In this document: positions 5,812-45,029 of the stretch, in pieces
Layout of the letters: each line of letters starts with the position of its first letter
How positions within the stretch are numbered: the first letter of the stretch is position 1
Source: Bacillaceae bacterium
Lineage (GTDB): Bacteria; Bacillota; Bacilli; JACDOE01
Direction of reading: 5' to 3'
Length of the DNA: 64,000 bases
Assembly: GCA_017656255.1 (NCBI GenBank)
Contig: JACDOE010000002.1
Location: 4,033-68,032, forward strand
The notes under the pieces: model-generated
Databases searched by the model: none
The model's input: only the letters and a program-made list of their open reading frames with translations
What the model was told of the DNA's origin: nothing
Program-made: the position numbers and the translations under genes

Positions 5812-5820
5812 GAAGGAACG

Positions 5821-6021: not shown

Positions 6022-6085
6022 ACTCAACTTCGATTACTTCATCATCTAGCCGGGGAAATTTCATTTTTACACATAATTTTGGACT
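6022..6085 (+). mobile_element. Solo IS256-family right-end remnant (about 65 bp, including the terminal inverted repeat)
   Basis: TTCATTTTTACACATAATTTTGGACT is identical to the right end of the intact IS at 16814..16840. Weaker upstream similarity (ACTCAACTTCGA...ACTTCATC) matches the last codons of the transposase gene. Confidence 0.6.
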
Positions 6086-6426
6086 CGACCGGAGGGGCTT
6101 TTCACCCTGAAGACAACCCTGGAATTCCATCCGATATATCACCGTCTCGAAGCCCGGATCCGTTCCCAAATTTTGCTGAGTTTGTTAGTATCATTACTTC
6201 TGGTAAGCATGGTCGAAGTGAAACGGGTGGGACCTGGAATAAGTTGAGTCACCTCCACGGTTCCTAGAAATCCATCCGGAAGCATAGACACGCCCACACG
6301 CCCTATTTCTATCTGAATACCTGTAAACCCAAGTATGACATGGATTTACAGGAATTTTATTTGCGTAGACGAACTCAGGTCTTTTTGGGGTTCTTTAAGG
6401 CTATCATCATAAACTTGAAAGAATAT

Positions 6427-9414: not shown

Positions 9415-9429
9415 GACTCCATCTCCTCC

Positions 9430-15100: not shown

Positions 15101-15347
15101 TATTCTCTCGTTTAAGCATTTCATGTTTGGCCATTTGATCAGGAATTTTCATATCACGTATAAAAGTTGGACTATTGAATAAAAATCGAACCTCTTCTAC
15201 TTTTAATAACTCTTTCTTAAGTGCTTCAAAAGCATATATTGTAAAATATGAAGACATAATCGATATTTTTGAACCCTTTTTTAGGAATTTCTTCAACTCG
15301 TCCCCAACATTACCATGCGTTTTATTATCTAGCATTTTTCCAACCAT
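12102..15347 (-). CDS. PLD-like nuclease domain fused to an SNF2-family (SF2) helicase
   Basis: 1081 aa. N-terminal phospholipase-D-like segment with H..K..DD..GTSNFT. SNF2 motif I DSVGLGKT, motif II DESHNFRN, and a helicase C domain. Head of a four-gene operon. Confidence 0.75.
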   Translation of the reverse strand: MVGKMLDNKTHGNVGDELKKFLKKGSKISIMSSYFTIYAFEALKKELLKVEEVRFLFNSPTFIRDMKIPDQMAKHEMLKRENSLVGIDLEVKFRNELNQAKIARECADWIRSKVQMKSLNLPMAPGNLIHVQNKSDDSIAIQGTSNFTSSGLGYTYSTNYEMNSLINEPGQTMNYLRWFDQIWNNDEHVENVKQEVLSRIEKIYQDNTPEFLYYVTLYNIFKDFLEELSEDDIVKSKTGFKDTIIWNKLYKFQKDGVLGAIDKLEKYNGCIIADSVGLGKTFEALAVIKYYELRNDRVLVLCPKKLRENWLIYTQNDKRNVLAADRFNYDVLNHTDLSRYSGMSGDINLATVNWSNYDLVVIDESHNFRNNEARKDRETRYSRLMNQVIRSGVKTKVLMLSATPVNNKMNDLKNQVSFITEGKDNALNSAGIDSIELTLRKAQQDFNKWLKLGEEKRTTDTLLEMLNFDYFKLLDAITIARSRKHIEKYYNMSEIGKFPKRLKPINVYPDIDEEKEFPEIREVNKIINRLNLSAYSPLKYVLPEKQAEYSQKYDIQVKGGSVFKQIDRERSLVHLMRVNLLKRMESSIHSFGMTIASLLGKIDDLLNKLENINQFTEQSINITDINIDDDDVEDMLIGSKVKVLLQDIDQIKLRQDLEEDKQKLEKLLVESAKVRPYRDAKLLELKSMIHHKLSNPINQNNKKIIVFTAFADTANYLFDELSKWILKEYGIHTALVTGTGGNKTTLSNIPKDLNTILTYFSPVSKERNKVDEMANEEIDLLIATDCISEGQNLQDCDYLINYDIHWNPVRIIQRFGRIDRLGSKNDVIQLVNFWPNMDLDEYINLEARVSGRMVLLDISATGEENVIEYDEKKKMNDLEYRAKQLKQLQEEVIDLEDISGGISITDLTLNDFKMDLVDYMNKHKLDLETAPLGMYSITSKHLTPNGEAKPGVIFCIKQRNANAKIKELSALYPYYLVYVSNDGDILLGHSKTKQILDLYRKVCMGQNVLFTELILQFHKETDELADMSDYKSLLDTVVEFILGIVEEKGMESLFSLGDSSLLVDTNTTSEDFELISFLIIK

Positions 15348-15457
15348 GCATATCCCCCTGTTTCTTTATGTATTATTTTTTAGGGATTGATTTATAATAA
15401 CAATTTTATTTTATAGTTACATTTTACCATTATCTTTGTACATTATTGCAATAAGTT

Positions 15458-16840
15458 AAGTCCATATAATTGTGTAAAAAGAAAATCTATAAAAAAGGAG
15501 CCATTTTCAAATCCCTCGGTTAGAATGAAGTTGTGCACACTACATTCGAGAGGAGAGATTTGAAATGGCTCAATACAAGATTAACGTAGATTCAGAGATT
15601 TTGCATCAACTTTTTCTGGGGAATTCTCAAGATTCAGGGGTAGCGGCTTTGTTGGAGTCCGTGTTAAATCAGGTCTTAGAGGCACAGGTTTCAGAACAAT
15701 TAGGGGCCGAACCCTATGAACGCACAGATGAACGCCAGGGTTATCGAAACGGTACATATCCTCGTCAACTGACGACGCGTGTCGGTAAGATCACCCTTCG
15801 AGTACCTCGTCTGAGAAACGGCAAGTTTTCTACCGAATTGTTTGCCCGTTACCAGAGAAGTGAACAAGCATTGGTTCTGGCTCTGATGGAAATGGTGGTC
15901 AATGGGGTTTCGACGCGAAAAGTGAGCCAGATTACAGAAGAATTGTGCGGTGAGGAGTTTTCCAAGTCGACAGTTTCTGAGCTGTGCAAAAAACTGGATC
16001 CGATTGTACAAGCCTGGAATAACCGAAACCTTCGAGATCGAAATTATCCGTTTGTCATTGTGGATGCAATGGTGATTAAAGTGCGTGAAGAGGGGCGGGT
16101 TCGATCCCGTGGTGTCCTGATAGGATACGGGATTAATGACGAAGGGCATCGGGAAGTATTAGGCATGATGCTTGGAGACAGCGAATCTGAAGCGAGCTGG
16201 AATGACTTTTTCTCCTGGTTGAAATCCCGCGATTTACGCGGTGTGGATCTCATTGTTTCTGACCACCACAGCGGACTGGTCAAAGCGATCCGAAATCACT
16301 TTCAGGGGGTAACGTGGCAGCGTTGCCAGACTCACTTTATGAGAAACATTCTGGATGCCACCCCAAAGGCTTTAAAAGAAGAAATCCATACGCGGGTCAG
16401 AGCCGTGTTTGATGCACCCGATATGAAGACAGCCAGGCTGTTACTTGAAGATGTGTTGGCAGAATATGAAGAGAAAGCTTCAAAGGCGATGAATATCCTG
16501 GAGACCGGTTTTGATGATGCGACAGCCGTCCTCGTTTTACCAAAGAAATACCGCAAACGTCTCCGGACAACAAATGGGATGGAGAGGCTGAATGAAGAGA
16601 TCCGACGCAGAGAACGGGTCATTCGCATCTTTCCTAATAGAGAGTCGGCCATGAGACTCATTGGAGCTTTGCTCATGGAACAGGATGAGAAATGGTCCAG
16701 TGGCCGAAAGTATTTGGACATGACGGAATACCACTTATGGCTTCCATCTCAAAAACAAGATAAACAGGTTCAAAAGGTTACTCAACTTCGAACTTCATCT
16801 TCTAACAGGGGGATTCATTTTTACACATAATTTTGGACTT
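15458..16840 (+). mobile_element. IS256-family insertion sequence (about 1.38 kb)
   Basis: Imperfect terminal inverted repeats AAGTCCATATAATTGTGTAAAAAG (left) and revcomp of TTCATTTTTACACATAATTTTGGACTT (right). Contains a single Mutator-like transposase gene. Confidence 0.75.
15565..16830 (+). CDS. IS256-family transposase
   Basis: 421 aa. Hallmark NGVSTRKV motif and DDE region typical of IS256/Mutator-like transposases. Confidence 0.85.
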   Translation: MAQYKINVDSEILHQLFLGNSQDSGVAALLESVLNQVLEAQVSEQLGAEPYERTDERQGYRNGTYPRQLTTRVGKITLRVPRLRNGKFSTELFARYQRSEQALVLALMEMVVNGVSTRKVSQITEELCGEEFSKSTVSELCKKLDPIVQAWNNRNLRDRNYPFVIVDAMVIKVREEGRVRSRGVLIGYGINDEGHREVLGMMLGDSESEASWNDFFSWLKSRDLRGVDLIVSDHHSGLVKAIRNHFQGVTWQRCQTHFMRNILDATPKALKEEIHTRVRAVFDAPDMKTARLLLEDVLAEYEEKASKAMNILETGFDDATAVLVLPKKYRKRLRTTNGMERLNEEIRRRERVIRIFPNRESAMRLIGALLMEQDEKWSSGRKYLDMTEYHLWLPSQKQDKQVQKVTQLRTSSSNRGIHFYT

Positions 16841-16979
16841 AATCGACATTTCCCCTTTGTAGTTATAGCCAGAGTAAATGGTAAATAACAAAGAGAGATT
16901 TATATTATTATAAAAGAAAAAGGAAATTGAGAATAAATATAGAAGTTAGAAGTAAATTTTAATCATTTGTTTAGATCAG

Positions 16980-17549
16980 ATGTTTAGGATGTGTATATCT
17001 ATGACTGGAATAATATTTGTAGGAGGAATTCATGGAGTTGGTAAAACAACTTTATGCAAGCAAATATCTGAACAGTTTAAATTATTACATTATTCAGCGA
17101 GTGATTTAATATCACAAAGGAAAAAAGTCGATTTTAATAATGAGAAAAAAGTTAGGAATATAAATGAGAACCAAAATTTATTACTGGAGGCAATAAATTG
17201 TTTAGATACTCGAGATAATTGTTTATTATTAGATGGTCATTTTTGCTTAATAAACACATTTGGAGAAATTAGAAAAATTCCTATTGAGACATTTATTAAT
17301 TTATCACCTAGCGCAATAATCTGTTGTACTGAATCTCCTACAAAAATTTTTACTAGGTTAAAAGAGAGAGATAACATAAATTATGATATTAATTTTTTAG
17401 AAAGATACCAAAGAATCGAATTAGCATATTCACAAGAAATATCAGAGAAATTAAATGTACCTTATTTCGTTTACTCTCCGGTCGAAGAAATGAATAATTT
17501 TTATAAATTTTTAGAAAGAATAATTAAAGGAGGGGTAGAATGTGAGTGA
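16980..17549 (+). CDS. Small P-loop NTPase / nucleotide-kinase-like protein
   Basis: Walker A GGIHGVGKTT near the N-terminus, about 185 aa, kinase-like size. An alternative start at 17001 is possible. Very AT-rich. The next gene overlaps its 3' end. Confidence 0.55.
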   Translation: MFRMCISMTGIIFVGGIHGVGKTTLCKQISEQFKLLHYSASDLISQRKKVDFNNEKKVRNINENQNLLLEAINCLDTRDNCLLLDGHFCLINTFGEIRKIPIETFINLSPSAIICCTESPTKIFTRLKERDNINYDINFLERYQRIELAYSQEISEKLNVPYFVYSPVEEMNNFYKFLERIIKGGVECE

Positions 17550-18591
17550 TTATTTAGAAAGAAGAAAATTTAAGGATGTTGATTTAAACGATAATTTTTT
17601 TGATTCTCTAAAAGAAGATTATCACGAATTTGAAACTTGGTTTAGAAAAAAAGAAGAAGAGGAAGCGTTTTTACTATATGATAATGATAATAAAATTCAA
17701 GGATTTCTTTATTTTAAAATTGAGGAAGGTCCAATAAAAGATGTTGAACCAGACATTAATCAAAAAAAAGTATTGAAAATCGGAACTTTTAAAATTAACC
17801 CTCATGGTACTAGATTAGGTGAGCGTTTTATAAAGAAGGCTTTAGATTATGCCATTGTAGAGAATGTAGATGCGTGTTATGTTACTATTTTTGAAAGGCA
17901 TGATGTCTTAGTAAAGCTGTTTGAAAGGTATGGTTTTATTAGGTACGGCGTTAAAGATACATCCAACGGGATTGAACTAGTTTTAGTTAAAGATTTGCGT
18001 GAGTTAAAGAATGATATATTATTGGATTATCCTTTAATCAGTACAAAAAATTCAAGAAAATTCATCCTTTCAATTTACCCTAAGTACCATTCAAGGATGT
18101 TTCCGGATTCTATCTTAAAAACTGAAAAAGTCGATATTCTAGAAGATGTTTCATATACGAATAGTATACATAAGATATATGTTTGTAGAATGGCTGTCGA
18201 TCAAGCGAACCGTGGAGATATCTTTGTAATATATCGCACAAAAACTCCTGGACAAAGTGCCGAATATACATCTGTTGTAACATCAGTGTGTGTTGTAGAG
18301 GATATAAAGAGTCAAGATGAATTTAAAAACTTTGAAGAATTTTTTGAATATGCTAATGCTTATAGTATATTTAATCGTGATGATCTAAAAAAGTGGTATA
18401 ACAAAGGGGGATGTTTTATTATCAAAATGACTTACAATGCAGCTTTGAGTAAAAGATTAATTAGAAAAAAACTAATTGAAGAAATAGGTCTTGAACGTAA
18501 TAGCTATTGGGGATTTTTCGAAATATCAAATGAGCAATTTAATCGAATTCTAGAAGAAGGTGAAGTTAATGAAAGTATTATTATCGATTAA
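17542..18591 (+). CDS. GNAT-fold acetyltransferase-like protein with about 190-aa uncharacterised C-terminal domain
   Basis: GTG start with RBS AAAGGAGGGG. The N-terminal half carries the GNAT motif-A-like HGTRLGERF. The C-terminal half has no recognisable motif. Overlaps both neighbours (8 nt upstream, 23 nt downstream). Confidence 0.5.
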   Translation: MSDYLERRKFKDVDLNDNFFDSLKEDYHEFETWFRKKEEEEAFLLYDNDNKIQGFLYFKIEEGPIKDVEPDINQKKVLKIGTFKINPHGTRLGERFIKKALDYAIVENVDACYVTIFERHDVLVKLFERYGFIRYGVKDTSNGIELVLVKDLRELKNDILLDYPLISTKNSRKFILSIYPKYHSRMFPDSILKTEKVDILEDVSYTNSIHKIYVCRMAVDQANRGDIFVIYRTKTPGQSAEYTSVVTSVCVVEDIKSQDEFKNFEEFFEYANAYSIFNRDDLKKWYNKGGCFIIKMTYNAALSKRLIRKKLIEEIGLERNSYWGFFEISNEQFNRILEEGEVNESIIID

Positions 18592-18943
18592 ACCCGAATA
18601 TGTTGAACAAATTGAAAATGGAAACAAAAAATTCGAATATAGAAAAAGAATTTTTAAAAAAAATGTTGATTCGGTAGTGGTTTACTCAACAAAGCCGGTT
18701 GGGAAAATAGTTGGAGAAATTATAATAGAAGAAATTATAAATGATTCTCCAGAAGAAATTTGGAACAAGACAAATAAATATTCTGGAATCTCAGAAGAAA
18801 ACTTTAAAAATTACTTTTCTAATCGAAAGGAAGGGTTTGCTATAAAGATCAAGAAATTTCTTAAATATGATAAACCTTTAAATCCATTTGAAATTTTTAA
18901 TGATTTTGTACCTCCGCAGTCTTATAAATATATAGAAAGATAA
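18569..18943 (+). CDS. ASCH (PUA-like) domain protein
   Basis: MKVLLSIKPEYVEQIENGNKKFEYRK is the canonical ASCH N-terminal pattern. About 124 aa. Start is inside the 3' end of the upstream gene; the ORF-track start at 18560 is GTG. Confidence 0.65.
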   Translation: MKVLLSIKPEYVEQIENGNKKFEYRKRIFKKNVDSVVVYSTKPVGKIVGEIIIEEIINDSPEEIWNKTNKYSGISEENFKNYFSNRKEGFAIKIKKFLKYDKPLNPFEIFNDFVPPQSYKYIER

Positions 18944-18948
18944 ATAGG

Positions 18949-18972
18949 GTGACTACAAGTCACTTATTTTTT
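18949..18972 (+). terminator. Rho-independent terminator after the ASCH gene
   Basis: Stem GTGACT / AGTCAC with a 3-nt loop, followed by TTATTTTTT. Confidence 0.6.
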
Positions 18973-19008
18973 ATGTACAAGTAATCAAAGTAAAAAAGGT
19001 GATTCATT

Positions 19009-21366
19009 ATGATACGAACAGGCGTTAGGTGGCTAGAATCCGAAACTCGCAAAATATTTAATGCAACCAAAAAATCAGACGAATTATTGGCATATCTTGA
19101 TTCACTTTTATTTCATAAAAAAGTGGCTACTGGAAGTGCTGAATCATTTGAATCTGGTCGAAAGCAGGGCAGAATGACGTATTATAAAGAAAATAAAAGA
19201 TTCATTGTAGCCGCACCTAGAAAAAAAGGAGATTACATACATGTCGTCCTAACAATCCAAACTATCAGCAGAGCTGAAATGGAGGAACAGGGATTTAAAT
19301 TGGGAAACCAACATGATATTTATCTCTATAATAAAGAAGAAATAGAAAGGTTTGTCGATTTTTTAAATTTTAAACTAAACCGGGGACGACAATTAAAATT
19401 ATCATCACTGGTGTTGAAAGAATGGATTAAGAGATACATACAAGATGAAGATAGTCGTAAACGATATAAACAAGTTAATAAATCCAGATTTACAACACTT
19501 GAACATTTTAAAATTTATCTTGAACAGTTAAAATCCGGTGACCTGTCGCTATTAGAATTTAAAAAGAACATTGACCAGTTATTTAAAACAAAACATGAAA
19601 TAGCCGGCGAAAAAATCAACATATGGGGATTCAGCGGCTTTTCAGGTCAAATGTTTTTCAACCAAATCTGTAATCAGGTTGAACATGCCGGAATGATGGA
19701 TGAATTAACCAATGCTTTTCTTGAGGCAATTGAATTACCTGAACAAATCAACCATGATTTCAGCTGGGTCAAACATAAATTTCAAACCTTTATTGAAATC
19801 ATTAAAATATCGGCTAAAAAAGCCATTGAGAACGGGTTTCCCCCACAAAAATGTGCCAAAGTTAAATTTTCAACATTTTTCTTAAGTTTTTTCTGGGGGA
19901 TTCAGGATCTTTATCATATCCCGATTTATTATCGGTCTTCCAGAGATGCACTGGAGTATCTAGAGTATCCACTTAATCAAAACACTAAACATTTTGATGG
20001 AACCAATTACATATATTTTGCAGAACGTATGAACGAAGTTTCTGACGAAGTATCCACTTATTTGCCTGATGACAATACATTTAACATGTTAGAGCTGGAA
20101 CATTTTCTTCATTATGTAAAACAAAAAGTTGAGGAACAAAAGCAAAGTCAGGATGAAATTTACACTCTTTCAGATGATTTGTTTGCAGAGAGAATCAAGA
20201 ATACATTTATTGATATAGGAATCGTGATCGATGAGATGTCCAGCTCAATGGGTGAAGAGACGGATTTACCCGAGAGCCATCATGGCCAGGAGGTATGGCG
20301 GTTTTCGGGGAAGACAAACAAAGATGCCATGGTTTCTTATCTATTCTGCTGGGATAATCCGGATACGTATCTTTCCACCGTTTATGAAGAAGATGAAGAA
20401 GGTGCCTCCAAAAATATAGGGGAGATAGGCGGAGAAAATGAAGATGACTTCCTCCGCAATATGAAAAGATTTTTCATAGATCGTTTTAAGGAAAAAAAGC
20501 CCTATACACTTGAAGATGCGGTAGGGGAGACTTATATTGAAAAGAAATTGCTGGAAGAATGGCTGGAGCTTTTAAGTGAAAACAAGCAAATTATTTTTTA
20601 TGGTCCGCCCGGAACGGGTAAAACCCTTGTTGCCAAAAAACTGGCAAAAATACTGGCACAGCACGAAAACAGAACACGATTTATCCAATTTCACCCTTCT
20701 TACACCTATGAAGAATTTATAGAGGGACTGCGTCCTGAACTGGTTAAGACGGATCAGGGGACTTCCCAGTTATCCGTTAAAGTAAAACCCGGTATTTTTA
20801 AATCCTTATGTAAAGAAGCTTCAAAACCGGAAAATAAGTATGATTCCTATGTTTTAATTATCGATGAGATTAATCGCGCAAACACAGCTAAAGTATTTGG
20901 AGAATTGTTATATGCGCTGGAATACCGTGATACGCCGGTCCCTCTTCCTTACTCGAATGAAGATAAATTAATCGTTCCTTCAAATGTGTATCTGATTGGA
21001 ACCATGAATACGACTGACCGGTCCCTGGCCCATATAGATTTTGCTTTACGTCGCCGGTTTCAATTTATCCCCTTTTTTCCAGAGCAAACCGAACACGTCT
21101 TAAAATCATATCTGGATAAACATCAACCGGAAATGTCATGGGTCTTTGATCTTGTTAAATACGTTAATCAAAAAATAGAAGATCCCCATTATGCGATCGG
21201 ACACAGTTACTTTATGGGCCAGGAATTAACTGAAGAGAAGTTGGAACGAATATGGAAGTATCAGATTATACCTTATCTTGAAGAATGCTTTGTTCATCAG
21301 CCTGATAAAATAGAAGAATTTAAACTGGAAACGTTATTGGAAAATGGGGAGTTCAGGCATGACTAG
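19009..21366 (+). CDS. McrB-like AAA+ GTPase with long N-terminal putative DNA-recognition region
   Basis: The C-terminal 260 aa carry Walker A GPPGTGKT and the McrB signature IDEINRANTAKVFGELLYALEYR. The N-terminal 520 aa are unassigned. Confidence 0.75.
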   Translation: MIRTGVRWLESETRKIFNATKKSDELLAYLDSLLFHKKVATGSAESFESGRKQGRMTYYKENKRFIVAAPRKKGDYIHVVLTIQTISRAEMEEQGFKLGNQHDIYLYNKEEIERFVDFLNFKLNRGRQLKLSSLVLKEWIKRYIQDEDSRKRYKQVNKSRFTTLEHFKIYLEQLKSGDLSLLEFKKNIDQLFKTKHEIAGEKINIWGFSGFSGQMFFNQICNQVEHAGMMDELTNAFLEAIELPEQINHDFSWVKHKFQTFIEIIKISAKKAIENGFPPQKCAKVKFSTFFLSFFWGIQDLYHIPIYYRSSRDALEYLEYPLNQNTKHFDGTNYIYFAERMNEVSDEVSTYLPDDNTFNMLELEHFLHYVKQKVEEQKQSQDEIYTLSDDLFAERIKNTFIDIGIVIDEMSSSMGEETDLPESHHGQEVWRFSGKTNKDAMVSYLFCWDNPDTYLSTVYEEDEEGASKNIGEIGGENEDDFLRNMKRFFIDRFKEKKPYTLEDAVGETYIEKKLLEEWLELLSENKQIIFYGPPGTGKTLVAKKLAKILAQHENRTRFIQFHPSYTYEEFIEGLRPELVKTDQGTSQLSVKVKPGIFKSLCKEASKPENKYDSYVLIIDEINRANTAKVFGELLYALEYRDTPVPLPYSNEDKLIVPSNVYLIGTMNTTDRSLAHIDFALRRRFQFIPFFPEQTEHVLKSYLDKHQPEMSWVFDLVKYVNQKIEDPHYAIGHSYFMGQELTEEKLERIWKYQIIPYLEECFVHQPDKIEEFKLETLLENGEFRHD

Positions 21367-22579
21367 GCGACAGTGGTACCGGATCAAGGAATATCAAACA
21401 CGGCAAGGGGTTCAACTGTCTGAACAGAGTGTCCAGTTGTTACACAATCATTTTCGTCAAGTGGTCAAAGTAAGAAAAGCAGCGGATGGCTCCTGGGACA
21501 TAAAGGCCAATTCGATCGTGGGCCACATTAACTTACCAGACGCCATCATTCAAATTGAACCCAAAATCCCCATACAAACATTGTGGGAATGGATGGCGTG
21601 GGCGTATGATTTAAAGTCCCTGGAAATCTATCCATCCATGTCACCGTTCCAGCATCATGTTGGTGATCAAGAATGGCTGGTCAAAATCTTTTTATATGAA
21701 TGTGAAAAGATATATTCACAGGGGATTTACAAGGGATATGTGACGCGTGAAGAGGCCCTGGGGCATGTTCGGGGTCAATTAAATGCTTATCCGACCTTTC
21801 GTTTATGGCTTCAAAATGACTATCAATTTCTGTGCACCTTTGACGAATTGACATATGGGGTGACGGAAAATGAAATTATTTTCGCTGGCTTGCAGGACAT
21901 GAGCTCTAAAACTTTTCAAGATCCTGAGGTAAAGTCCCGGATTCATAAATTGATCCATGTATTTGGCGCTGAATTTTCTACCACACCGAAAAGATCGCCG
22001 CAGGAATGGATCGACATGATTGATAGTATCAAGATAACCCGACTCAATCACCATTACACCCGGGCGTTCCGTTTGTTGCGTTTATACTGGGAGGCTGCTG
22101 GACTTTCTTTTCAAAAGGGGAACATACAATGTCACAGTTTTTTGCTGGATATGAATGAGCTTTTTGAGCGCTACATTGCCAAAAGGTTGCAACATGAATT
22201 AAGTCCCTATCATGTGAATGTCATAGCCCAAAAGCAGGACTGGCTGGCAGTCGGAGGGCGCATTAAAATTGTTCCTGATCTAATCATCAAAGATGCGTCA
22301 GGTGACGAGATTGTTCTGGATACAAAGTATATCGGAAAAACCGAAGAGAGCTCCATCAACAGTCATATCTTCCAGATGCTTGCCTATTTAACTGCTCGGC
22401 AATCTAAAAAAGGCATTCTTCTTTACGTTTTTGGACCTGAACGGGAGGACGTGATTAAAAATACCGATATGGTTATATATCAATGGGGATTTATGGATAA
22501 TGAATTCAAGGAAGATGGCAAAGCGTTGACGGATAAGATTATGGGTCTGTTTAATAAACATTTATCTCATTCTAGTTAA
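21359..22579 (+). CDS. McrC-like PD-(D/E)xK nuclease subunit
   Basis: C-terminal VPDLIIKD...EIVLDTKY (PD...D/ExK). Overlaps the McrB-like gene. RBS GGGGAG lies upstream of the ATG at 21359; the ORF track begins at 21344. Confidence 0.7.
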   Translation: MTRRQWYRIKEYQTRQGVQLSEQSVQLLHNHFRQVVKVRKAADGSWDIKANSIVGHINLPDAIIQIEPKIPIQTLWEWMAWAYDLKSLEIYPSMSPFQHHVGDQEWLVKIFLYECEKIYSQGIYKGYVTREEALGHVRGQLNAYPTFRLWLQNDYQFLCTFDELTYGVTENEIIFAGLQDMSSKTFQDPEVKSRIHKLIHVFGAEFSTTPKRSPQEWIDMIDSIKITRLNHHYTRAFRLLRLYWEAAGLSFQKGNIQCHSFLLDMNELFERYIAKRLQHELSPYHVNVIAQKQDWLAVGGRIKIVPDLIIKDASGDEIVLDTKYIGKTEESSINSHIFQMLAYLTARQSKKGILLYVFGPEREDVIKNTDMVIYQWGFMDNEFKEDGKALTDKIMGLFNKHLSHSS

Positions 22580-22592
22580 GGAGGGGAAAAGA

Positions 22593-22829
22593 TTGTCCAC
22601 ACAAAGTGATGCCATTATAAAAGCTTTTGAAGAATTAGGAGGTACCAGGAGCATTAGAGAAATAGAGGATTGGGTTAACAGAAAGTATGGAGCCAAATGG
22701 AAGGATTTTAGTACGTTGATGGCTGATATGGTACCTGTGTCTCATGGTGGCAATACTTCTTCAACTGTACCCGAAGAAAAACGGGTTTTAGAAAGGGTTT
22801 CACGGGGCTATTATCGTTTGATAAAATGA
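22593..22829 (+). CDS. Stand-alone winged-helix protein (Mrr_N / HARE-HTH-like)
   Basis: 78 aa with a TTG start after RBS AAGGAGGGG. Pattern SIREIEDWV...RVSRGYYRL resembles the N-terminal wHTH of Mrr-type restriction enzymes. Confidence 0.45.
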   Translation: MSTQSDAIIKAFEELGGTRSIREIEDWVNRKYGAKWKDFSTLMADMVPVSHGGNTSSTVPEEKRVLERVSRGYYRLIK

Positions 22830-23341
22830 TTCACAAATTCGAATTAACATTTTCAAAAAATATATTAATTTCTCTTAATATATTCACAAATATGAAGCAC
22901 AATACTACCAATTGAGTTTGGTGATCTAGTTTCTTTCCACCATAAATTTTCAGTACTTAATGATTGAATGCATTTAACAACTTGGAGAGGTAATGATTGT
23001 ACATCCTGGCTTTTGAAATTTTAATAAATAGTTTCAAAGTTTCATTTGCCATTGACTCATTCCCCTATTTAACCAAGTTCTAATTTATTATTATATAGAA
23101 TAATTTGAGTTGCAGCTACTAACCACGCGTGCCTCCAAATCCTACAGGTATTTTTGCCATCAATCGCATCCATGCAACAAATATTAGAGATAACCTTTTT
23201 GATTTAAACTATTCATTATTGCAGAATCTTCATGGTATACTAATGTTACATATCCAACTGTATAAAGTCTTCTAACACGGCAACACTAATCCTAAAAACT
23301 TTTTAGGAGGTGAGGTCGTGGATAAAAAGGAGGGGAACGAT

Positions 23342-23494
23342 ATGCTCACTCCGGTTAAGCCTATTAACAAAGCCAAAAAAACAGGACTAACAAAGGATAA
23401 GAAGGAGCTTATGAAGAAATATCAGGGGTCTGCTTCTGCTCCGGTAGATTTGAATAAAATACGCCAGTGGTCAAAGAAGAATGAATCTCATTAA
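23342..23494 (+). CDS. Lys-rich 50-aa micro-ORF overlapping the PIN gene start
   Basis: Strong RBS AAAAGGAGGGG lies 6 nt upstream of the ATG. Product MLTPVKPINKAKKTGLTKDKKELMKKYQGSASAPVDLNKIRQWSKKNESH. Not in the ORF track because it is below the size cut-off. Confidence 0.3.
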   Translation: MLTPVKPINKAKKTGLTKDKKELMKKYQGSASAPVDLNKIRQWSKKNESH

Positions 23495-24041
23495 TTTCTC
23501 AGATAATTTCACAGGTTTTCATGAAGGCGAGGATATTTTAGTTGATACTGGAATATTACTTGCCTATTTTAATGAGTATGATGCGTATTATTCCACTGTT
23601 AAGGACCTGTTTGATAATCACATTTATGGAACCGATAGAACCCTGTTCCTTTATGTAAATCCAACTATCGTCAACGAGATTACCCATTTAGCCCAGGATC
23701 CTGTAAAAAGATATTTAAACGCATATCCTTCAGAACGGGATAAGTTTGATATGATTACCTTAATTAATTTGCAAAATAAGATAGCAAACGGAGTAAAGAA
23801 TTTAATTGAAAATGAAATCCTGTATGTGCTGGATGGAAACGAAGAAAGCGTGAAAAAACAGATTGAACTATACAAGACTTTAGGGTCTGCTGATGCTGTG
23901 AATGCATCTGTTGCTAATCTTTATGGGACAAGCTTCTTAACGGTAGATGCAAAACTGGCTTACAATCTAAAAAGCGTTGAAAATCAACTTCCTTACATCC
24001 AAAATGTATACTATACAACTTCTAGATACCGTGATTTCTAA
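23481..24041 (+). CDS. PIN-domain (VapC-like) protein
   Basis: Acidic residues sit in the positions expected of a PIN domain: ILVDTG near the N-terminus and LTVD near the C-terminus. 186 aa. Confidence 0.45.
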   Translation: MNLINFSDNFTGFHEGEDILVDTGILLAYFNEYDAYYSTVKDLFDNHIYGTDRTLFLYVNPTIVNEITHLAQDPVKRYLNAYPSERDKFDMITLINLQNKIANGVKNLIENEILYVLDGNEESVKKQIELYKTLGSADAVNASVANLYGTSFLTVDAKLAYNLKSVENQLPYIQNVYYTTSRYRDF

Positions 24042-24149
24042 AAGAAGTAGGAAAACCAAAAAAATAACGAACGAAGTGTTCCAGAAGGAACAGTCCCAAC
24101 TTCGTCAGGTTGAACAATCAGTTATACCTTTATTTAAATAACCTCGCCG

Positions 24150-24593
24150 TTATTTGAACAATTTTTCGTTAAACCATACTGTCAAAAGTGTAATAAATAC
24201 ACTAATAAACCCGGCATACACGTAAGCAGGAGTAAAAAAGATAAATATATCTTGAACGACATCATACGCCTTGGTTTGCAGTTCTGGAAATTCATAACTA
24301 CCGATTTCCCTAGAGCCTAACCAAAGAAGCAATATCCTTTCAAGAATCATTGGAATCAGAGATACCATAAAGGCAAATTTATATGGTTGACTGATCTGGC
24401 CATTCTTTTTAAAACTTATTGTTATGAACCCTAAAATAATATAAGGTATGACAATGAGCAATGTCCCAATGACTATTTCAACGTGGCCAAAATAAATTCT
24501 GGTGCCGAATCCAATACCGCTGATTATTCCATAGACTAACAAATACATAACCCAGCTTACAATAAAATATCCAGCCTTCTTTAGCATTTTCAA
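24150..24593 (-). CDS. Hypothetical integral membrane protein
   Basis: 147 aa with four predicted hydrophobic helices. Last gene of the AT-rich island. Confidence 0.5.
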   Translation of the reverse strand: MKMLKKAGYFIVSWVMYLLVYGIISGIGFGTRIYFGHVEIVIGTLLIVIPYIILGFITISFKKNGQISQPYKFAFMVSLIPMILERILLLWLGSREIGSYEFPELQTKAYDVVQDIFIFFTPAYVYAGFISVFITLLTVWFNEKLFK

Positions 24594-24907
24594 TCCCCCT
24601 TTGCAGGAATAAGAATAAGGGAGAAGCCACCTTATTCGTTTAGTTATGAGATCACTTTCTGTCTATAGTAACGTTTATAATTTCCATAACGTTTCTATGA
24701 GTTAGCAAAATTAATCCCCGATTGTAGTGTAGGTTACGGTTGAGCAATACAGCACAATCCAATCATGAAACAGCAAAGTTATTTCAAAATCACAAAATAA
24801 ATCTTGTTAACCCCCAAAAATTCCCCTATAATAAACCCAACAAAACTTTTCTTAACACTTAAGAAAATTATTGAAAAATCCAAACTAAAACCACAGGGAG
24901 AACCAAC

Positions 24908-26098
24908 ATGCTAACCGGAAACTACGAAATCATCAAATCCGTCAACATATCCCTCGTCCTTGACGCCCTGCGACACCACGAACAACTCTCACGATCCGAC
25001 ATCGCCAGACTGACCGGCCTCACCACCGGCACCATCACCAACATCGTCCACAAACTCATCGATCATGGCCTCGTCGAAGAAACCGGATCCAGCACCTCAT
25101 CCACCGGCGGAAGAAAACCCATCTTGCTCCGCCTTGCTGCCCGGGGCGCCTATGCCATCGGCATCGAAGTCACCACCACCGGCATCAAAGGCATGCTGGT
25201 CAACTTCCTGGCAGAACCCATACATACGCTTGAAAAACCGGGTGTCTTCCGCTACCAGCAGGGCCTATACTCCATCGCAGACCTCATCAAAGAACTGCAG
25301 CAACATCTGCCGGACGAACAGGACAAATTGCTCGGCGTCGGCATCAGCCTGCCGGGATGGGTCCATTTTGCCACCGGGAAAGTTCAGAATCTTCCCAACT
25401 TGCCGGGCTGGGAAAACGTCAACCTCAAGGATGATCTGGAGCAGGAGATCCGCCTCCCGGTGTTTATCGACAACGACGCCAATCTGGGCGCACTGGGCGA
25501 ATTATGGTTTGGCAAAGGCAGGATGTATCAACAGCTCATCTATATCCTGGTTGAAGACGGAATCGGCTCCGGTTTTGTGTTCAATCATCAGGTCTATCAC
25601 GGCAGGGGGTACACGGTCGGTGAACTGGGGCATATCCCCTTCGGCGGGAGTGATCAGCCCTGCTCCTGTGGCAACAGGGGATGCCTTGATGTCACCGCCT
25701 CAAACCGGGCCATGCTGAGAAACTATGCCACCCGGACGGGGGAAAACATCACCATCGAAGCATTGAACAGCCGTTTTCAACAGGGAGAGGAAGCCGCCCG
25801 TGCCGTCATGGAGGAATGCGCCGACAGGCTGGGCAGGGGCTGTGGAGCTCTGATCAACCTGTATGGACCCGAAGCGATCATCATCGGGGGAACCGTCGTC
25901 CATCAAAATCCCCATTTTCTGGATCTGGTCAAAGAGGCGACGCTCAAGTACGCCCTCCCCGTCATGTCCCGGGAGGTCCTGCTGACCGGGTCTCAATTAA
26001 AAGAACGCAGCGGTCTCTACGGCTGTGTCGCCCTCGTTTTTCAATCGACCCTGCAGCCCTATTCCCTGCAGTCGGTAGGCGGAACGCAATCAGGATAA
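24908..26098 (+). CDS. ROK-family transcriptional repressor (NagC/XylR-like)
   Basis: N-terminal wHTH (LSRSDIARLTGLTTGTITNIV), ROK sugar-kinase-like fold, and Zn motif CSCGNRGCLD. Confidence 0.8.
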   Translation: MLTGNYEIIKSVNISLVLDALRHHEQLSRSDIARLTGLTTGTITNIVHKLIDHGLVEETGSSTSSTGGRKPILLRLAARGAYAIGIEVTTTGIKGMLVNFLAEPIHTLEKPGVFRYQQGLYSIADLIKELQQHLPDEQDKLLGVGISLPGWVHFATGKVQNLPNLPGWENVNLKDDLEQEIRLPVFIDNDANLGALGELWFGKGRMYQQLIYILVEDGIGSGFVFNHQVYHGRGYTVGELGHIPFGGSDQPCSCGNRGCLDVTASNRAMLRNYATRTGENITIEALNSRFQQGEEAARAVMEECADRLGRGCGALINLYGPEAIIIGGTVVHQNPHFLDLVKEATLKYALPVMSREVLLTGSQLKERSGLYGCVALVFQSTLQPYSLQSVGGTQSG

Positions 26099-27273: not shown

Positions 27274-28272
27274 ATGACGGAACCATCGATCTATATCGGC
27301 ATTGATCTGGGTGGCACATCGATCAAAATGGGACTGGTGGACCAGCAGGGCCACCTGATTGACTGGACGGAAGCGCCCACCCGCGCCCGGGAGGGATACC
27401 ACAAAGTCAGTGAGACCATGCACGCCATGGCCGGTAACCTGTTACATCATCACGGGTATGCCTGGCATGATTGCGTTGGAGTCGGCATCGGCGTTCCCGG
27501 GTTTCTGGATTTGCCAAACGGCATCATCGTAGAATCAGTCAATCTGGGCTGGAAAAACATCGATCTGAAAAAACATCTGGCGCAAACGTGGCGCGTGCCG
27601 GTTGAACTGGACAACGATGCGAATGTGGCAGCCCTCGGGGAAATGTGGTGCGGTGCCGGCAGGGATATATCCGACATGCTCTGCCTGACCATTGGCACCG
27701 GGATTGGCGGCGGCGTCATCATCAACCGGGATATCTATCATGGTGCCAACGGGATGGCCGGTGAGATTGGCCATGTCCGCGTGAAAGAGCGGAACGCCAG
27801 AACCTGTAACTGTGGCAGAAAAGGGTGTCTGGAAACGGAAGCCTCGGCCACCGCCATTGAACAAAACGCACTGGAAAGAGCGCAACAGCAACCTGCAGGC
27901 AAACTGAAAGAGATCTACGAATCATCAGGGACCATCACCGCGAAACAGGTCATCGAACTCGCCCGGCAGGGAGACGCAGACAGCCGCCAAATCATAGAGG
28001 ATGTCGGTCAGGTTCTCGGCCGATTTCTCGCTGAAATGAGTTATCTGCTGAACCCGGAACTCATCGTTGTGGGTGGCGGTGTTTCCCATGCAGAGGATGT
28101 GCTTTTTCAGCCCTTGATCACCACTTTTAAAGCATCGGCCCTCCCCAGACTGACCGAAAAAACATCCGTCGTCCGGGCACAGCTGGGCAATCGGGCGGGC
28201 ATGATTGGAGCGGCCTGGCTCATTCATCGAAAACACACGGAAAGTAGCCTGAGGGGGAGGATGAACCCTTGA
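27274..28272 (+). CDS. glcK: ROK-family glucokinase
   Basis: IGIDLGGTSIK ATP-binding motif and CNCGRKGCLE Zn motif. No HTH. Confidence 0.8.
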   Translation: MTEPSIYIGIDLGGTSIKMGLVDQQGHLIDWTEAPTRAREGYHKVSETMHAMAGNLLHHHGYAWHDCVGVGIGVPGFLDLPNGIIVESVNLGWKNIDLKKHLAQTWRVPVELDNDANVAALGEMWCGAGRDISDMLCLTIGTGIGGGVIINRDIYHGANGMAGEIGHVRVKERNARTCNCGRKGCLETEASATAIEQNALERAQQQPAGKLKEIYESSGTITAKQVIELARQGDADSRQIIEDVGQVLGRFLAEMSYLLNPELIVVGGGVSHAEDVLFQPLITTFKASALPRLTEKTSVVRAQLGNRAGMIGAAWLIHRKHTESSLRGRMNP

Positions 28273-28506
28273 AATCACTCAATAAAATAGCTGTTTTAAC
28301 CAGTGGTGGAGATGCCCCGGGAGGGTTGCTTAATTCTAGATTAGTAGTTACACAGGGGCTGCTTTCTGAGCAATACATTTGCTGTAGAGAGTTTAAAGTA
28401 TTATGAATTTTATATAATGGTAAAGTGAAAGAGATGTATATAATCTTGAGGTCTTAAAAGTTTCTGTTCGATGATTACCATAACCTGTTTGAAGGGAAGT
28501 GTTGCA

Positions 28507-29079
28507 TTGAATTACTTATTCGAAACAGAAGAAAAGGATAGGGAAATTTCATTTCCTGAATTGATCAAAGAAAAGCCTGTGCTATTGGTGTTATTACGGC
28601 ATTTAGGATGACCCATCTGTCGGAATTTCCTCGCGCAGTTGCGTGAGAATGCAGATACCATTCAAAATAAAGGGCTTTCCATTGTCGCAGTTGTTCCAAC
28701 AGATTCAGATCAAATAAGACAGTTTTTACAAGTCTATGGGCCCTACCCGTTCCAAATATTAGGCGATCCCAATCTCAATGCTTATAAGGATCTTTCGCTC
28801 AGGCGAGTATCGATTGGAAGATCTCTTAAAATCATCACGCAGTATATTTTTTCTGGAAGAATACGAGAAATTTTCCCCAGAGATCCTGAACAGATGAAAA
28901 TCGTGAAAAAAGCATTATCGAGTCAGGATGTATATCAGCTAGGAGGGACCTGGTTGATAGAAACTACCGGAGAGATTCTCTGGCAACATATTGATTCTGA
29001 CCCCTCTGACCATGCTACTATTCCAACCATTTTATCAGTTTTAAATGAACTTAATGGAGAAGATTCATCTATCAGGTGA
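28507..29079 (+). CDS. Peroxiredoxin-like (AhpC/TSA_2-type thioredoxin-fold) protein with an in-frame TGA at the first Cys of the CxxC motif; candidate selenoprotein (UxxC) or pseudogene
   Basis: TTG start at 28507 after RBS GAAGGGAAG. Reads ...PVLLVLLRHLG-[TGA 28609..28611]-PICRNFLAQLRE.... The family motif is RHxGCxxCR. A 6-bp hairpin CUCGCG-CAGUUG-CGUGAG lies 18 nt downstream of the UGA. The track's ORF at 28639..29079 is the post-TGA part. Confidence 0.45.
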
Positions 29080-29113
29080 TCTATTGCATAACAAATGTAA
29101 CAACCCCGTTAAG

Positions 29114-29143
29114 AGGCCGTTCACCCTGCACCGGCCTTTTTTT
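29114..29143 (+). terminator. Rho-independent terminator
   Basis: AGGCCG-loop-CGGCCT followed by a T7 run. Confidence 0.7.
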
Positions 29144-29165
29144 CATGATTTTGTGTAAAAAGGGA

Positions 29166-29193
29166 TTGACTTTACGGCCATATTTTATATAAT
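29166..29193 (+). promoter_or_regulatory. SigA-type promoter of the cggR-gap operon
   Basis: TTGACT -35 box, 16-nt spacer, TATAAT -10 box. Confidence 0.55.
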
Positions 29194-29266
29194 ACCTGCA
29201 AAGCGGGATGAAAAATAATTATCGGGACACAAAACGTCCCGAACAAGAAACAGGTGGTCTTAATCG

Positions 29267-44633: not shown

Positions 44634-44737
44634 ACAACCGCTTTCCTTTCATCCAACATGATTATGCGTCATTCTATCACAATCTGGTAGACAACTCATC
44701 CGCTTGATGATAATATATTACTACAATTGCATATCGG

Positions 44738-44943
44738 AAGGGTACAGGTGCCGGGCGTTGTTTAACAACAACGATGAATAAGTTCATCGTCCGGCTTAAA
44801 AGGGAAGTTCGGTGAGAATCCGACACGGTCCCGCCACTGTGATGGGTTCCGGCAGATTGCCGGATATCTTTCAGTTTATGCCACTGGGCTAAGTCAACCG
44901 GGAAGGCACTGAAAGAGAGGCCCTAAGTCAGGAGACCTGCCTG
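44738..44943 (+). ncRNA. Cobalamin (AdoCbl) riboswitch
   Basis: Conserved AAAAGGGAAGUUCGGUGAGAAUCCGACACGGUCCCGCCACUG core and B12 box AAGUCAGGAGACCUGCC. Leader of the cobalt-transporter/cbi operon. Confidence 0.85.
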
Positions 44944-45029
44944 TATCAACAACACTGTCGACCTACGAGGATAGGGAGGTGTTAGAGAGCGGCATATGGT
45001 CTTTTTATGCCTGTGTGCGTCCAGTACAA

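What the first reader, a model, noticed from the sequence alone, without database searches (positions are those of the whole stretch)
28507..29079. Peroxiredoxin-like gene with TGA exactly at the CxxC Cys position plus downstream hairpin: selenoprotein or pseudogene
Seen in sequence: the reading frame from TTG 28507 (RBS GAAGGGAAG) runs ...PVLLVLLRHLG, then TGA at 28609..28611, then PICRNFLAQLRE... and continues to 29079. Established: the AhpC/TSA_2-type peroxiredoxin-like family has the redox motif RHxGCxxCR. A UGA at the first Cys of such motifs is the hallmark of thioredoxin-fold selenoproteins (UxxC). Seen: a hairpin CUCGCG-CAGUUG-CGUGAG (6 bp with one G·U) starts 18 nt after the UGA, with GU in the loop. 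This is compatible with a bacterial SECIS-like element. Its geometry is looser than the E. coli fdhF SECIS. Inference: either a genuine Sec-containing peroxiredoxin-like protein, which would be rare in Bacillales and require selABCD elsewhere, or a nonsense-inactivated pseudogene or sequencing error. The gene is also lower in GC than its neighbours.
Basis: partly seen in the sequence, partly recalled or inferred. Interest (0 to 1): 0.7.

Follow-up and report, generated by a model that had tools for sequence, protein, structure and literature searches.

The report
Unannotated selenocysteine peroxiredoxin-like gene, horizontally acquired
The in-frame TGA is the selenocysteine codon of a conserved thioredoxin-fold redox protein that databases wrongly annotate as a truncated protein, and this genome acquired the gene by horizontal transfer, but I could not test whether this host can decode it.

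Summary
Frame TTG 28507..29079 has one in-frame TGA (28609-28611) at the first Cys of the RHxGCxxCR motif of an AhpC/TSA_2 (Prx-like2 / SelL-related) protein.

It is not a sequencing error or a private nonsense mutation:
- All 13 distinct ortholog sequences examined, and every database clade member down to 37% identity, have a stop at that codon, always TGA where DNA was read.
- Two distant high-GC homologs (23-28% identity) also have TGA there. Most of the wider family has Cys (113 of 150 representatives).
- Both halves are under purifying selection, and together they model as one thioredoxin fold, with the TGA residue at the CxxC position.
- The hairpin CUCGCGC-AGUU-GCGUGAG (28630-28647) meets the published bacterial SECIS criteria. 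It is the most synonymously conserved stretch of the gene, and its substitutions preserve pairing.

One ortholog host, Evansella (Bacillus) cellulosilytica DSM 2522, is published as SelD/SelA/SelB-positive.

New here:
- The gene is a single-gene low-GC island (39% vs 52-57%) in a Paenibacillus-like MAG, so it was probably acquired horizontally.
- Every public entry for the clade is a truncated call.

Sec machinery in this MAG could not be tested. Verdict: a genuine selenoprotein gene, a new member of a known kind, of moderate interest.

The parts
28491..28499 (+). Ribosome-binding site GAAGGGAAG, 7 nt upstream of the TTG start
   Evidence: Read directly from the sequence. Orthologs have AAAGGAG/AAAGAGG at the same place, before an ATG at the homologous start.
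28507..29079 (+). Full-length selenoprotein gene: 190 codons, TTG start, Sec at codon 35, TGA stop at 29077-29079. It belongs to the Prx-like2 / SelL-related thioredoxin-fold family.
   Evidence: Translation. Pfam PF13911 4.2e-14. NCBIfam NF040769, 107 bits. Full-length collinear orthologs. dN/dS is 0.21 upstream and 0.125 downstream of the TGA against the closest ortholog. GenBank annotates only 28639-29079 (MBO8171503.1, 146 aa).
28609..28611 (+). UGA selenocysteine codon, at the first position of the U-P-I-C redox motif
   Evidence: TGA at the homologous codon in all 13 distinct ortholog sequences read, and never TAA or TAG. Also TGA in the distant homologs L016 and L020. The column is Cys in 113 of 150 family representatives. 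It aligns with catalytic Cys44 of human PGF synthase.
28618..28620 (+). TGT codon for the resolving Cys of the UxxC motif
   Evidence: Cys is nearly invariant here (C38). Alteribacillus has U-P-C-T, with the Cys shifted by one.
28630..28647 (+). Bacterial SECIS core hairpin: stem CUCGCGC (28630-28636), loop AGUU (28637-28640), stem GCGUGAG (28641-28647). It lies inside codons 42-47 (L A Q L R E).
   Evidence: Folds at -10.1 kcal/mol alone. The UGA-to-loop spacing is 25 nt, and G is at loop position 2 followed by U, which meets the criteria quoted. Codon choice in these six codons is 94% uniform against 62% elsewhere, and this is the top window for third-position conservation in the gene. 98.8% of cells are paired, and five of seven pairs vary while staying paired, including one C-G to G-C change.
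29111..29143 (+). Terminator-like hairpin (9-bp stem, 12-nt loop) followed by a run of seven T
   Evidence: Fold of -11.6 kcal/mol, z = -2.8 against shuffles. The consensus scanner missed it, presumably because it only accepts loops of 3-8 nt.
28273..29266 (.). Low-GC island (about 37-41% GC) holding this one gene and its intergenic flanks, between a ROK glucokinase gene (27274-28272) and cggR-gapA (29267 onward)
   Evidence: Composition profile. Nucleotide homology to ortholog loci is confined to 28491-29052. Both junctions are reproduced in a second assembly.

Best explanation
This is a selenoprotein gene. A 190-codon mRNA encodes a thioredoxin-fold, peroxiredoxin-like-2 / SelL-related thiol oxidoreductase. 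Its N-terminal active-site nucleophile is selenocysteine (U35-P-I-C38).

Inferred mechanism, from the established bacterial pathway: when a ribosome reaches UGA 28609, the hairpin 18 nt downstream (28630-28647, AGUU loop) binds SelB.GTP.Sec-tRNA(Sec). Sec is then inserted instead of terminating. The enzyme would cycle through a selenenylsulfide between U35 and C38, reducing a peroxide or disulfide substrate, as the Cys44/Cys47 pair does in the nearest solved relative.

The gene reached this genome by horizontal transfer from low-GC Bacillaceae (the Evansella / Alteribacillus / Sediminibacillus type). Gene callers and GenBank/RefSeq split it into a 34-aa ORF and a truncated protein of about 140 aa.

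Shown here:
- conservation of the TGA and the Sec/Cys homolog pattern;
- RNA-level constraint on the hairpin;
- coding constraint on both halves of the gene;
- the fold and the active-site position of the Sec residue;
- the foreign base composition.

Inferred, not shown:
- actual Sec insertion;
- the substrate;
- that this particular host has selA/selB/selC/selD.
For: 1. Conserved TGA. It sits at the same codon in 13 distinct ortholog sequences (Evansella vedderi, Alteribacillus sp., and Logan/ENA/JGI contigs) and is never TAA or TAG. All 23 clade members in a 5.8-billion-protein database are called as 117-148 aa truncations, except one read with TGA=Trp.
2. Sec/Cys pairs. Two distant homologs from 68% GC organisms also have TGA. 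Three others have TGC. 113 of 150 representatives have Cys.
3. SECIS.
   - The hairpin meets the published consensus: 4-nt loop, 7-bp stem, G at loop position 2 followed by U, 25-nt spacing, -10.1 kcal/mol.
   - Synonymous sites in the six hairpin codons are 94% uniform against 62% elsewhere. This is the most conserved third-position window in the gene.
   - Substitutions keep pairing, including a C-G to G-C double change in L020. L020 shares the AGUU loop and the spacing at only 23% protein identity.
4. One polypeptide. Against the closest ortholog, dN/dS is 0.21 for the 33 codons upstream of the TGA and 0.125 downstream. The AlphaFold model of ortholog P0001 (pLDDT 92.4) uses the N-terminal 34 residues as core strands. 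It places residue 35 at the N-terminus of helix 36-47.
5. Fold and family. The top fold hits are human PGF synthase (PRXL2B), then peroxiredoxins and ResA/DsbE. The PGFS CVVC motif aligns with UPIC.
6. Sec machinery in a host of the clade. Bacillus (Evansella) cellulosilyticus DSM 2522, which carries ortholog P0010, is listed as SelD+, SelA+, SelB+ with 3 selenoproteins.
7. Not an assembly artefact. An independent Logan assembly is 100% identical over 20,186 bp, including the TGA.
8. Horizontal transfer. The gene is 39% GC against 52-57% in the flanks. Homology to orthologs covers the gene only. The host's GlmS is closest to Paenibacillus/Ferviditalea/Polycladomyces at 66-69% identity, not to the donor-type Bacillaceae.
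Against: - No selA, selB, selD or tRNA-Sec was found in the 64-kb window or in the 20-kb ortholog loci. The rest of this MAG could not be searched, so Sec decoding in this host is unproven.
- The window contains no second selenoprotein gene.
- The foreign GC has not shifted toward the host's. A recent arrival could be intact without being used.
- Covariation statistics are modest (29 of 500 shuffles reach the observed score), because the hairpin hardly varies.
- No Rfam family matches. I would expect this, because bacterial SECIS elements resemble each other little.
- The Logan assembly probably used the same reads, so it does not replicate the sequencing.
- There is no experimental evidence of Sec insertion for any member of this clade.
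Confidence: 0.88

Rival explanations
1. The gene is a genuine selenoprotein gene by descent but is dead on arrival in this host. It was recently transferred into a lineage that lacks selA/B/C/D. Translation therefore stops at UGA 28609, and the gene is an intact-looking relic that will decay.
For: - The GC content is still fully foreign: 39% and GC3 35%, against 52-57% in the flanks.
- There are no sel genes, no tRNA-Sec and no second selenoprotein in 64 kb.
- The Sec trait is patchy in Bacillales. About two thirds of listed Paenibacillus entries lack SelA/SelB.
- The neighbourhood collects foreign DNA: a 19-kb defence and transposase island lies 3 kb away.
Against: - The gene is completely intact: start codon, RBS, 190 codons with no other stop or frameshift, a consensus SECIS, and a terminator.
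- It retains the residues that are invariant among its orthologs.
- dS to the closest known relative is about 0.75-0.9, with dN/dS of 0.13-0.21. No relaxation is visible, although that divergence could have built up in an unsampled donor.
- The Sec trait occurs in about a quarter to a third of related Bacillales, and selenoprotein genes should persist mainly in such hosts.
Confidence: 0.25
2. It is a nonsense-inactivated pseudogene, or a base-calling or assembly error, specific to this genome.
For: A single in-frame stop in a MAG, which GenBank annotates as a truncated protein.
Against: - The same TGA is at the same codon in every ortholog from independent genomes and metagenomes.
- A second assembly gives an identical sequence.
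- There is purifying selection on both sides of the TGA.
- A conserved RNA hairpin lies downstream.
Confidence: 0.01
3. The UGA is decoded without selenium. Either near-cognate tRNA-Trp or tRNA-Cys reads through it, or the two halves are made separately (termination plus reinitiation at TTG 28639) and then associate.
For: - A start codon (TTG/ATG, Met-Arg-Glu...) lies 9 codons after the TGA in most orthologs. This is why gene callers produce the products of about 140 aa.
- From general knowledge, not tested here: low-level UGA read-through as Trp is documented in Bacillus subtilis.
Against: - The stop is always TGA and always at the catalytic Cys column. Trp there would abolish redox chemistry.
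- A conserved hairpin with SECIS geometry at SECIS spacing is unexplained by leaky read-through.
- A split would cut the fold between strand 24-29 and the active-site helix.
- At least one host has the Sec machinery.
- The apparent internal start, LRE/MRE, is part of the hairpin-encoding LAQLRE segment. It is conserved as Leu-Arg-Glu inside the helix.
Confidence: 0.03

Closest known systems
Bacterial 'Prx-like thiol:disulfide oxidoreductase' selenoproteins (UxxC; Zhang, Gladyshev and co-workers: PMC1794560, PMC2398784, PMC5029168, PMC13188914)
   Same: A thioredoxin/peroxiredoxin-like fold, Sec at the first position of a UxxC motif, abundant Cys (CxxC) homologs, and an in-ORF bacterial SECIS just downstream of the UGA. 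This protein also scores on PF00578 (7.6e-12), the domain listed for that family.
   Different: The best domain match here is PF13911 / NF040769 (Prx-like2 / SelL-related), not PF00578. The catalogued examples I could see named are Deltaproteobacteria and Clostridia. I could not retrieve the catalogued sequences, so I cannot tell whether this Bacillaceae clade is already counted there. For example, it might be one of the 3 selenoproteins credited to B. cellulosilyticus.
[quoted passage not shown]
   Same: From my own knowledge, cd02970 (PRX_like2) is the CDD model corresponding to Pfam AhpC-TSA_2. If so, both belong to the same superfamily branch. Both have Sec at the first motif position.
   Different: The catalogued family has UxxS, with no resolving Cys. 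This clade has UxxC, with variants UxC (Alteribacillus) and UxCC. I could not run a sequence comparison with the exemplar MDX2448127.1.
Eukaryotic selenoprotein L (SelL; Prx-like, UxxU diselenide motif)
   Same: The best NCBIfam model is 'SelL-related redox protein', NF040769 (7.9e-31). SelL is described as a Prx-like protein (PMC2398784). Sec occupies the same redox motif.
   Different: SelL is eukaryotic, with a 3'-UTR SECIS, and has two Sec residues (UxxU). This protein has one Sec and an in-ORF bacterial hairpin. Its score of 107 bits is below the model's 120-bit cut-off. Two distant representatives here (P0117, P0140) read WxxW, which may stand for UxxU. I did not follow them up.
Human prostamide/prostaglandin F synthase (PRXL2B; PDB 9us9, 9usa)
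   Same: It is the closest solved structure by both sequence (8.7e-05) and fold (Foldseek 5.8e-11, TM 0.70-0.81). Its RRFG-C44-VV-C47-R motif aligns with RHLG-U-PI-C-R.
   Different: It shares about 20% identity, is a Cys enzyme, and is eukaryotic. Its substrate cannot be assumed to apply to a bacterial homolog.

Membership tests
Bacterial selenoprotein gene (Sec-UGA plus bSECIS) | An in-frame UGA conserved among orthologs, with coding sequence conserved on both sides | tested here: met
   TGA in all 13 distinct ortholog sequences read. dN/dS is 0.21 upstream and 0.125 downstream.
Bacterial selenoprotein gene (Sec-UGA plus bSECIS) | Homologs with Cys aligned to the UGA position | tested here: met
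   L017-L019 have TGC. 113 of 150 representatives have Cys. PGFS Cys44 aligns with it.
Bacterial selenoprotein gene (Sec-UGA plus bSECIS) | A bSECIS meeting the consensus: 3-9 nt apical loop, 4-16 bp stem, G in the first two loop positions, 16-37 nt from UGA to loop, MFE of -7.5 kcal/mol or lower (PMC13188914, Fig. 2A) | tested here: met
   The loop is AGUU (4 nt, G at position 2, followed by U), the stem is 7 bp, the spacing is 25 nt, and the energy is -10.1 kcal/mol. Synonymous-site and pairing conservation support it.
Bacterial selenoprotein gene (Sec-UGA plus bSECIS) | The host genome encodes SelA, SelB, SelD and tRNA-Sec | not testable with these tools
   None in the 64-kb window. For ortholog host B. 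cellulosilyticus DSM 2522 the published table gives SelD+, SelA+, SelB+.
Bacterial selenoprotein gene (Sec-UGA plus bSECIS) | Selenium demonstrably incorporated (75Se labelling or mass spectrometry) | not testable with these tools
   This needs an experiment. I found no report for this clade.
Pfam AhpC-TSA_2 (PF13911) / Prx-like2 | Score above the curated gathering threshold | tested here: met
   53.3 bits against a cut-off of 27, covering profile positions 1-113 of 114.
Pfam AhpC-TSA_2 (PF13911) / Prx-like2 | A thioredoxin fold with the redox motif at the N-terminus of the first helix after a beta-strand | tested here: met
   Model of ortholog P0001, pLDDT 92.4: strand 24-29, residue 35, helix 36-47. 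The top fold hits are PRXL2B, Prx and ResA.
NCBIfam NF040769 SelL-related redox protein | Score at or above the curated cut-off (120 bits) | tested here: not met
   107 bits, E = 7.9e-31, over profile positions 16-172 of 173. It is the best model by far but falls below the cut-off, so I call the gene 'related to' rather than a member.
Typical peroxiredoxin (PF00578; peroxidatic Cys in a PxxxT/SxxC motif) | The T/S-x-x-Cp motif of true peroxiredoxins | tested here: not met
   The motif here is G-U-P-I-C-R, a CxxC type, not TxxC. The PF00578 match covers only residues 9-102. The gene may work like a thiol peroxidase or oxidoreductase, but it is not a canonical Prx.

The most novel reading that the evidence does not exclude
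Two readings are not excluded by my evidence.

1. This Bacillaceae UxxC clade of PF13911 / SelL-related proteins is an uncatalogued bacterial selenoprotein subfamily. Every one of its public entries is mis-annotated as a truncated protein. Its distant relatives include possible UxxU forms like eukaryotic SelL.
2. The window captures a selenoprotein gene moving on its own, with its SECIS inside the ORF, into a distant lineage. This would be a natural example of selenoprotein spread independent of the Sec machinery. If the host lacked that machinery, it would be a snapshot of a selenoprotein gene dead on arrival.
Probability: 0.3. Interest if true: 0.5.

Novelty: new member of a known kind. Interest (0 to 1): 0.38.

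Why it matters
**Annotation.** Every database entry for this clade is a 117-148 aa fragment lacking the active site. That includes the RefSeq entries for Evansella cellulosilytica, Sediminibacillus albus, Alteribacillus sp. and Bacillus sp. Marseille-P3661, and the GenBank entry for this MAG. Recognising the Sec codon restores a 190-aa enzyme and adds to the selenoproteome of aerobic or facultative Bacillales, where selenoproteins are less studied.

**Evolution.** The locus is a clean case of a selenoprotein gene, with its SECIS embedded in the ORF, carried as a single-gene island into a compositionally and phylogenetically distant host. This bears on how selenoproteomes expand.

**Limits.** It does not change what is known about how Sec decoding works.

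Tried and rejected
- **Rfam.** The gathering scan of the window found only a glmS ribozyme and a cobalamin riboswitch. A permissive scan of 28560-28720 found no SECIS family, only a chance 15-bit viral pseudoknot hit on the minus strand. This says little, because bacterial SECIS elements resemble each other little.
- **Sec machinery.** ARAGORN found no tRNA in the window or in nine ortholog loci. Motif scans for SelA/SelB/SelD signatures in the window and all loci were negative. This covers only about 64 kb plus about 150 kb of other genomes, so it does not show absence.
- **Second selenoprotein.** A scan of the window for TGA-split ORFs gave 29 mechanical candidates. None had a redox-motif context or coding-like continuity.
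- **Lower SECIS stem.** A possible lower stem (AUCUGU...GCAGAU), seen in the window, L001 and L002, is not conserved in the other orthologs. I dropped it.
- **Source sample.** A literature search for SRR13776092 or H0Z33 found nothing.
- **Gene neighbourhood.** It is not conserved among orthologs (ribose operon, sigma factor, PALP enzyme and others). Only L010/L011 place the gene next to ahpC-ahpF-like genes, so context says little about function.

Full report
**1.

- The frame from TTG 28507 to the stop at 29079 is 190 codons, with one internal TGA at 28609-28611. The context is LLVLLRHLG-TGA-PICRNFLAQLRE. An RBS, GAAGGGAAG, precedes the start.
- With Cys in place of the stop, the protein matches Pfam AhpC-TSA_2 (4.2e-14), AhpC-TSA and Redoxin, all above their cut-offs.
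- The best NCBIfam model is NF040769, 'SelL-related redox protein', at 107 bits. That is just under its 120-bit cut-off.
It is better drawn as a 7-bp stem (one G.U) with an AGUU tetraloop at 28630-28647.
- The gene is 39% GC (GC3 35%), against 52-57% in its flanks.

**2. The TGA is a conserved feature, not damage**

- A search of 5.8 billion proteins returned 15 close homologs. Fourteen were only 117-145 aa and covered the C-terminal 33-75% of the query. The one full-length hit read RHLG-W-PCCR, which is what a caller using TGA=Trp would print.
- I fetched DNA for the orthologs from Evansella vedderi, Alteribacillus sp. YIM 98480 and contigs from Logan, ENA and JGI. In 13 distinct sequences the stop is at the identical codon, is always TGA, and follows a conserved 34-residue N-terminal segment. 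Gene callers usually list that segment as a separate 34-aa ORF.
- A profile search with the full-length alignment found 23 clade members down to 37% identity. All are truncated calls, except the one with W.
- An exhaustive HMMER scan of 1.84 billion representatives showed the same pattern. Every representative at 40% identity or more is a truncated form.
- Among the best 150 representatives, 113 have Cys in this column (consensus LRHxGCxxCR). Another 27 begin just after it, and 5 show W.
- Three distant metagenomic homologs carry TGC. Two others, at 23-28% identity and from 68% GC organisms, again carry TGA at the same codon.
- This is the Sec/Cys homolog pattern used to recognise selenoproteins (PMC2398784).

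**3. The two halves are one protein**

- Against the closest ortholog, dN/dS is 0.21 for the 33 codons upstream of the TGA and 0.125 for the 140 codons downstream. Over 19 pairs with usable dS (below 3), the medians are 0.28 and 0.13.
- An AlphaFold model of the full-length ortholog P0001 is confident (mean pLDDT 92.4, pTM 0.88). The N-terminal 34 residues supply three strands of the fold. Residue 35 sits between strand 24-29 and helix 36-47, the classical CxxC site.
- Foldseek ranks human prostamide/PGF synthase (PRXL2B) first, followed by 1-Cys peroxiredoxins and ResA/DsbE oxidoreductases.
- By sequence, the PGFS motif RRFG-C-VV-C-R aligns with RHLG-U-PI-C-R.

**4. The hairpin behaves like a SECIS**

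- The 2026 review of prokaryotic selenoproteomes gives the bacterial SECIS consensus: a 3-9 nt apical loop, a 4-16 bp stem, G in the first two loop positions (usually followed by G or U), 16-37 nt from UGA to loop, and MFE of -7.5 kcal/mol or lower (PMC13188914).
- Here the loop is AGUU, the stem is 7 bp, the spacing is 25 nt, and the hairpin alone folds at -10.1 kcal/mol.
- Across 11 orthologs, the six codons that encode the hairpin (L A Q L R E) use a single codon in 94% of cases. Other conserved residues average 62%, and 4- to 6-fold degenerate residues average 51%.
- The 6-codon window with the highest third-position conservation in the whole gene is codons 43-48, which overlap the hairpin.
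- The fixed codons (CTC, GCG, CAG, TTG, CGT, GAG) differ from the commonest synonymous codons elsewhere in these low-GC genes.
- In a 12-sequence alignment, 98.8% of cells are paired. Five of the seven pairs vary while staying paired. The only unpaired cell is at the terminal pair.
- L020 has 23% protein identity but keeps the AGUU loop and the spacing. Its outer pair is G-C where the window has C-G.
- The shuffle control is only moderately significant (29 of 500), because there is little variation to count. The synonymous-site result is the stronger argument.
- Rfam has no matching family.

**5. Sec machinery**

- The window has no tRNA and no SelA/SelB/SelD signatures, and neither do the ortholog loci. 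It also has no second candidate selenoprotein.
- I could not search the rest of the genome.
- From the literature: Peng et al. 2016 list Bacillus cellulosilyticus DSM 2522 as SelD+, SelA+, SelB+ with three selenoproteins (PMC5029168 Tables S1 and S2). That strain is now Evansella cellulosilytica, the host of ortholog P0010.
- By my hand count, about 34 of roughly 137 Bacillales entries in one block of that table have the full Sec trait, as do about 17 of roughly 50 Paenibacillus entries.
- The trait is therefore patchy in Bacillales, not rare.

**6. Where the window comes from, and how the gene got there**

- Exact look-ups identify the window as a MAG labelled 'Bacillaceae bacterium' (274,577-bp contig). 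Its entry MBO8171503.1 is the 146-aa truncated 'AhpC/TSA family protein'.
- The host's GlmS is closest to Paenibacillus, Ferviditalea, Polycladomyces and Brevibacillus, at only 66-69% identity.
- The gene's relatives sit in low-GC Bacillaceae (Evansella, Alteribacillus, Sediminibacillus and Bacillus sp. Marseille-P3661).
- Nucleotide homology to the closest ortholog (81%) covers only 28491-29052.
- The gene lies between a native-GC ROK glucokinase gene and cggR-gapA.
- A second assembly (Logan, SRR13776092) is identical over 20,186 bp, including both junctions and the TGA.
- I conclude this is a horizontally acquired single-gene island. A 19-kb low-GC defence and transposase island lies 3 kb to its left.

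**7. Verdict**

- At the family level, the selenoprotein reading is strongly supported. The sequencing-error and private-pseudogene reading is refuted.
- For this locus, the gene is intact in every respect that I could test. Whether it is decoded depends on sel genes that I could not look for.
- I put the family-level claim at about 0.9. I estimate about 0.7 that this host expresses the full-length Sec protein. That figure starts from a prior of about 30% for the Sec trait in related Bacillales. I raised it because an intact selenoprotein gene should persist mainly in Sec-decoding hosts.
- Thioredoxin-fold UxxC selenoproteins with in-ORF SECIS elements are a well-known kind, and the literature lists Prx-like families, including a cd02970 family with UxxS.
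- I could not establish whether this Bacillaceae UxxC clade is already counted in those catalogues. No public protein entry that I saw annotates it correctly.
- It is therefore a new member of a known kind, of moderate interest. Its value lies mainly in correcting annotation and as an example of a selenoprotein gene moving between lineages.

Noticed in passing
window 5750-25000: A low-GC island of about 19 kb (27-42% GC, against a host GC of about 52-57%) encodes defence and mobile functions. It holds a type III restriction Res subunit with an endonuclease domain (6427-9414, minus strand), an N6/N4 DNA methylase (9430-11325, minus), a DUF4391 protein (11325-12101, minus) and an SNF2/PLD helicase (12102-15347, minus). 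It also holds a Mutator/IS256-type transposase (15565-16830), a McrB-like AAA_5 ATPase (19009-21366) and McrC (21344-22579). The 349-aa ORF at 17542-18591 has no Pfam match at E <= 1e-5.
   Followed up: partly
window 3684-3855 and 44729-44958: A glmS ribozyme (115.8 bits) lies upstream of glmS. A cobalamin riboswitch (94.8 bits) is at 44729-44958, followed by plus-strand ORFs that I did not annotate.
   Followed up: no
window 29166-29193: A near-perfect sigma-A promoter (TTGACT, 16-nt spacer, TATAAT; 11 of 12 matches) lies just upstream of cggR-gapA. It falls in the intergenic stretch at the downstream edge of the low-GC island.
   Followed up: no
P0117 and P0140 (distant representatives, 306-325 aa): Both redox positions read W (LRHFAWDPWRDHI and LRHLSWLPWRDHI). 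If these W residues are TGA codons called as Trp, the proteins would be UxxU (diselenide-type) forms, like eukaryotic SelL, with an N-terminal extension of about 150 aa.
   Followed up: no
L002 10103-10117 (Alteribacillus sp. YIM 98480); L003 604-618: The redox motif varies within the Sec clade. Alteribacillus has U-P-C-T, with the resolving Cys one residue closer (UxC). L003/P0001 has U-P-C-C. All the others have U-P-I-C.
   Followed up: partly
L016 3037-3100: This distant TGA-containing homolog (28% identity, 68% GC) lacks the AGUU hairpin. It folds into a different bulged stem-loop with a CAGGAA loop about 30 nt after the UGA, so the same family may use a second SECIS design.
   Followed up: partly
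L010/L011 6716-9446: In one ortholog lineage the selenoprotein gene lies directly downstream of two AhpC/TSA genes and an AhpF-like flavoprotein disulfide reductase. This is the only neighbourhood that hints at an antioxidant role. The other ortholog neighbourhoods are unrelated to each other.
   Followed up: partly
window contig (public record): The MAG is labelled 'Bacillaceae bacterium', but its GlmS is closest (66-69% identity) to Paenibacillus, Ferviditalea, Polycladomyces and Brevibacillus. The family-level label may therefore be wrong.
   Followed up: partly
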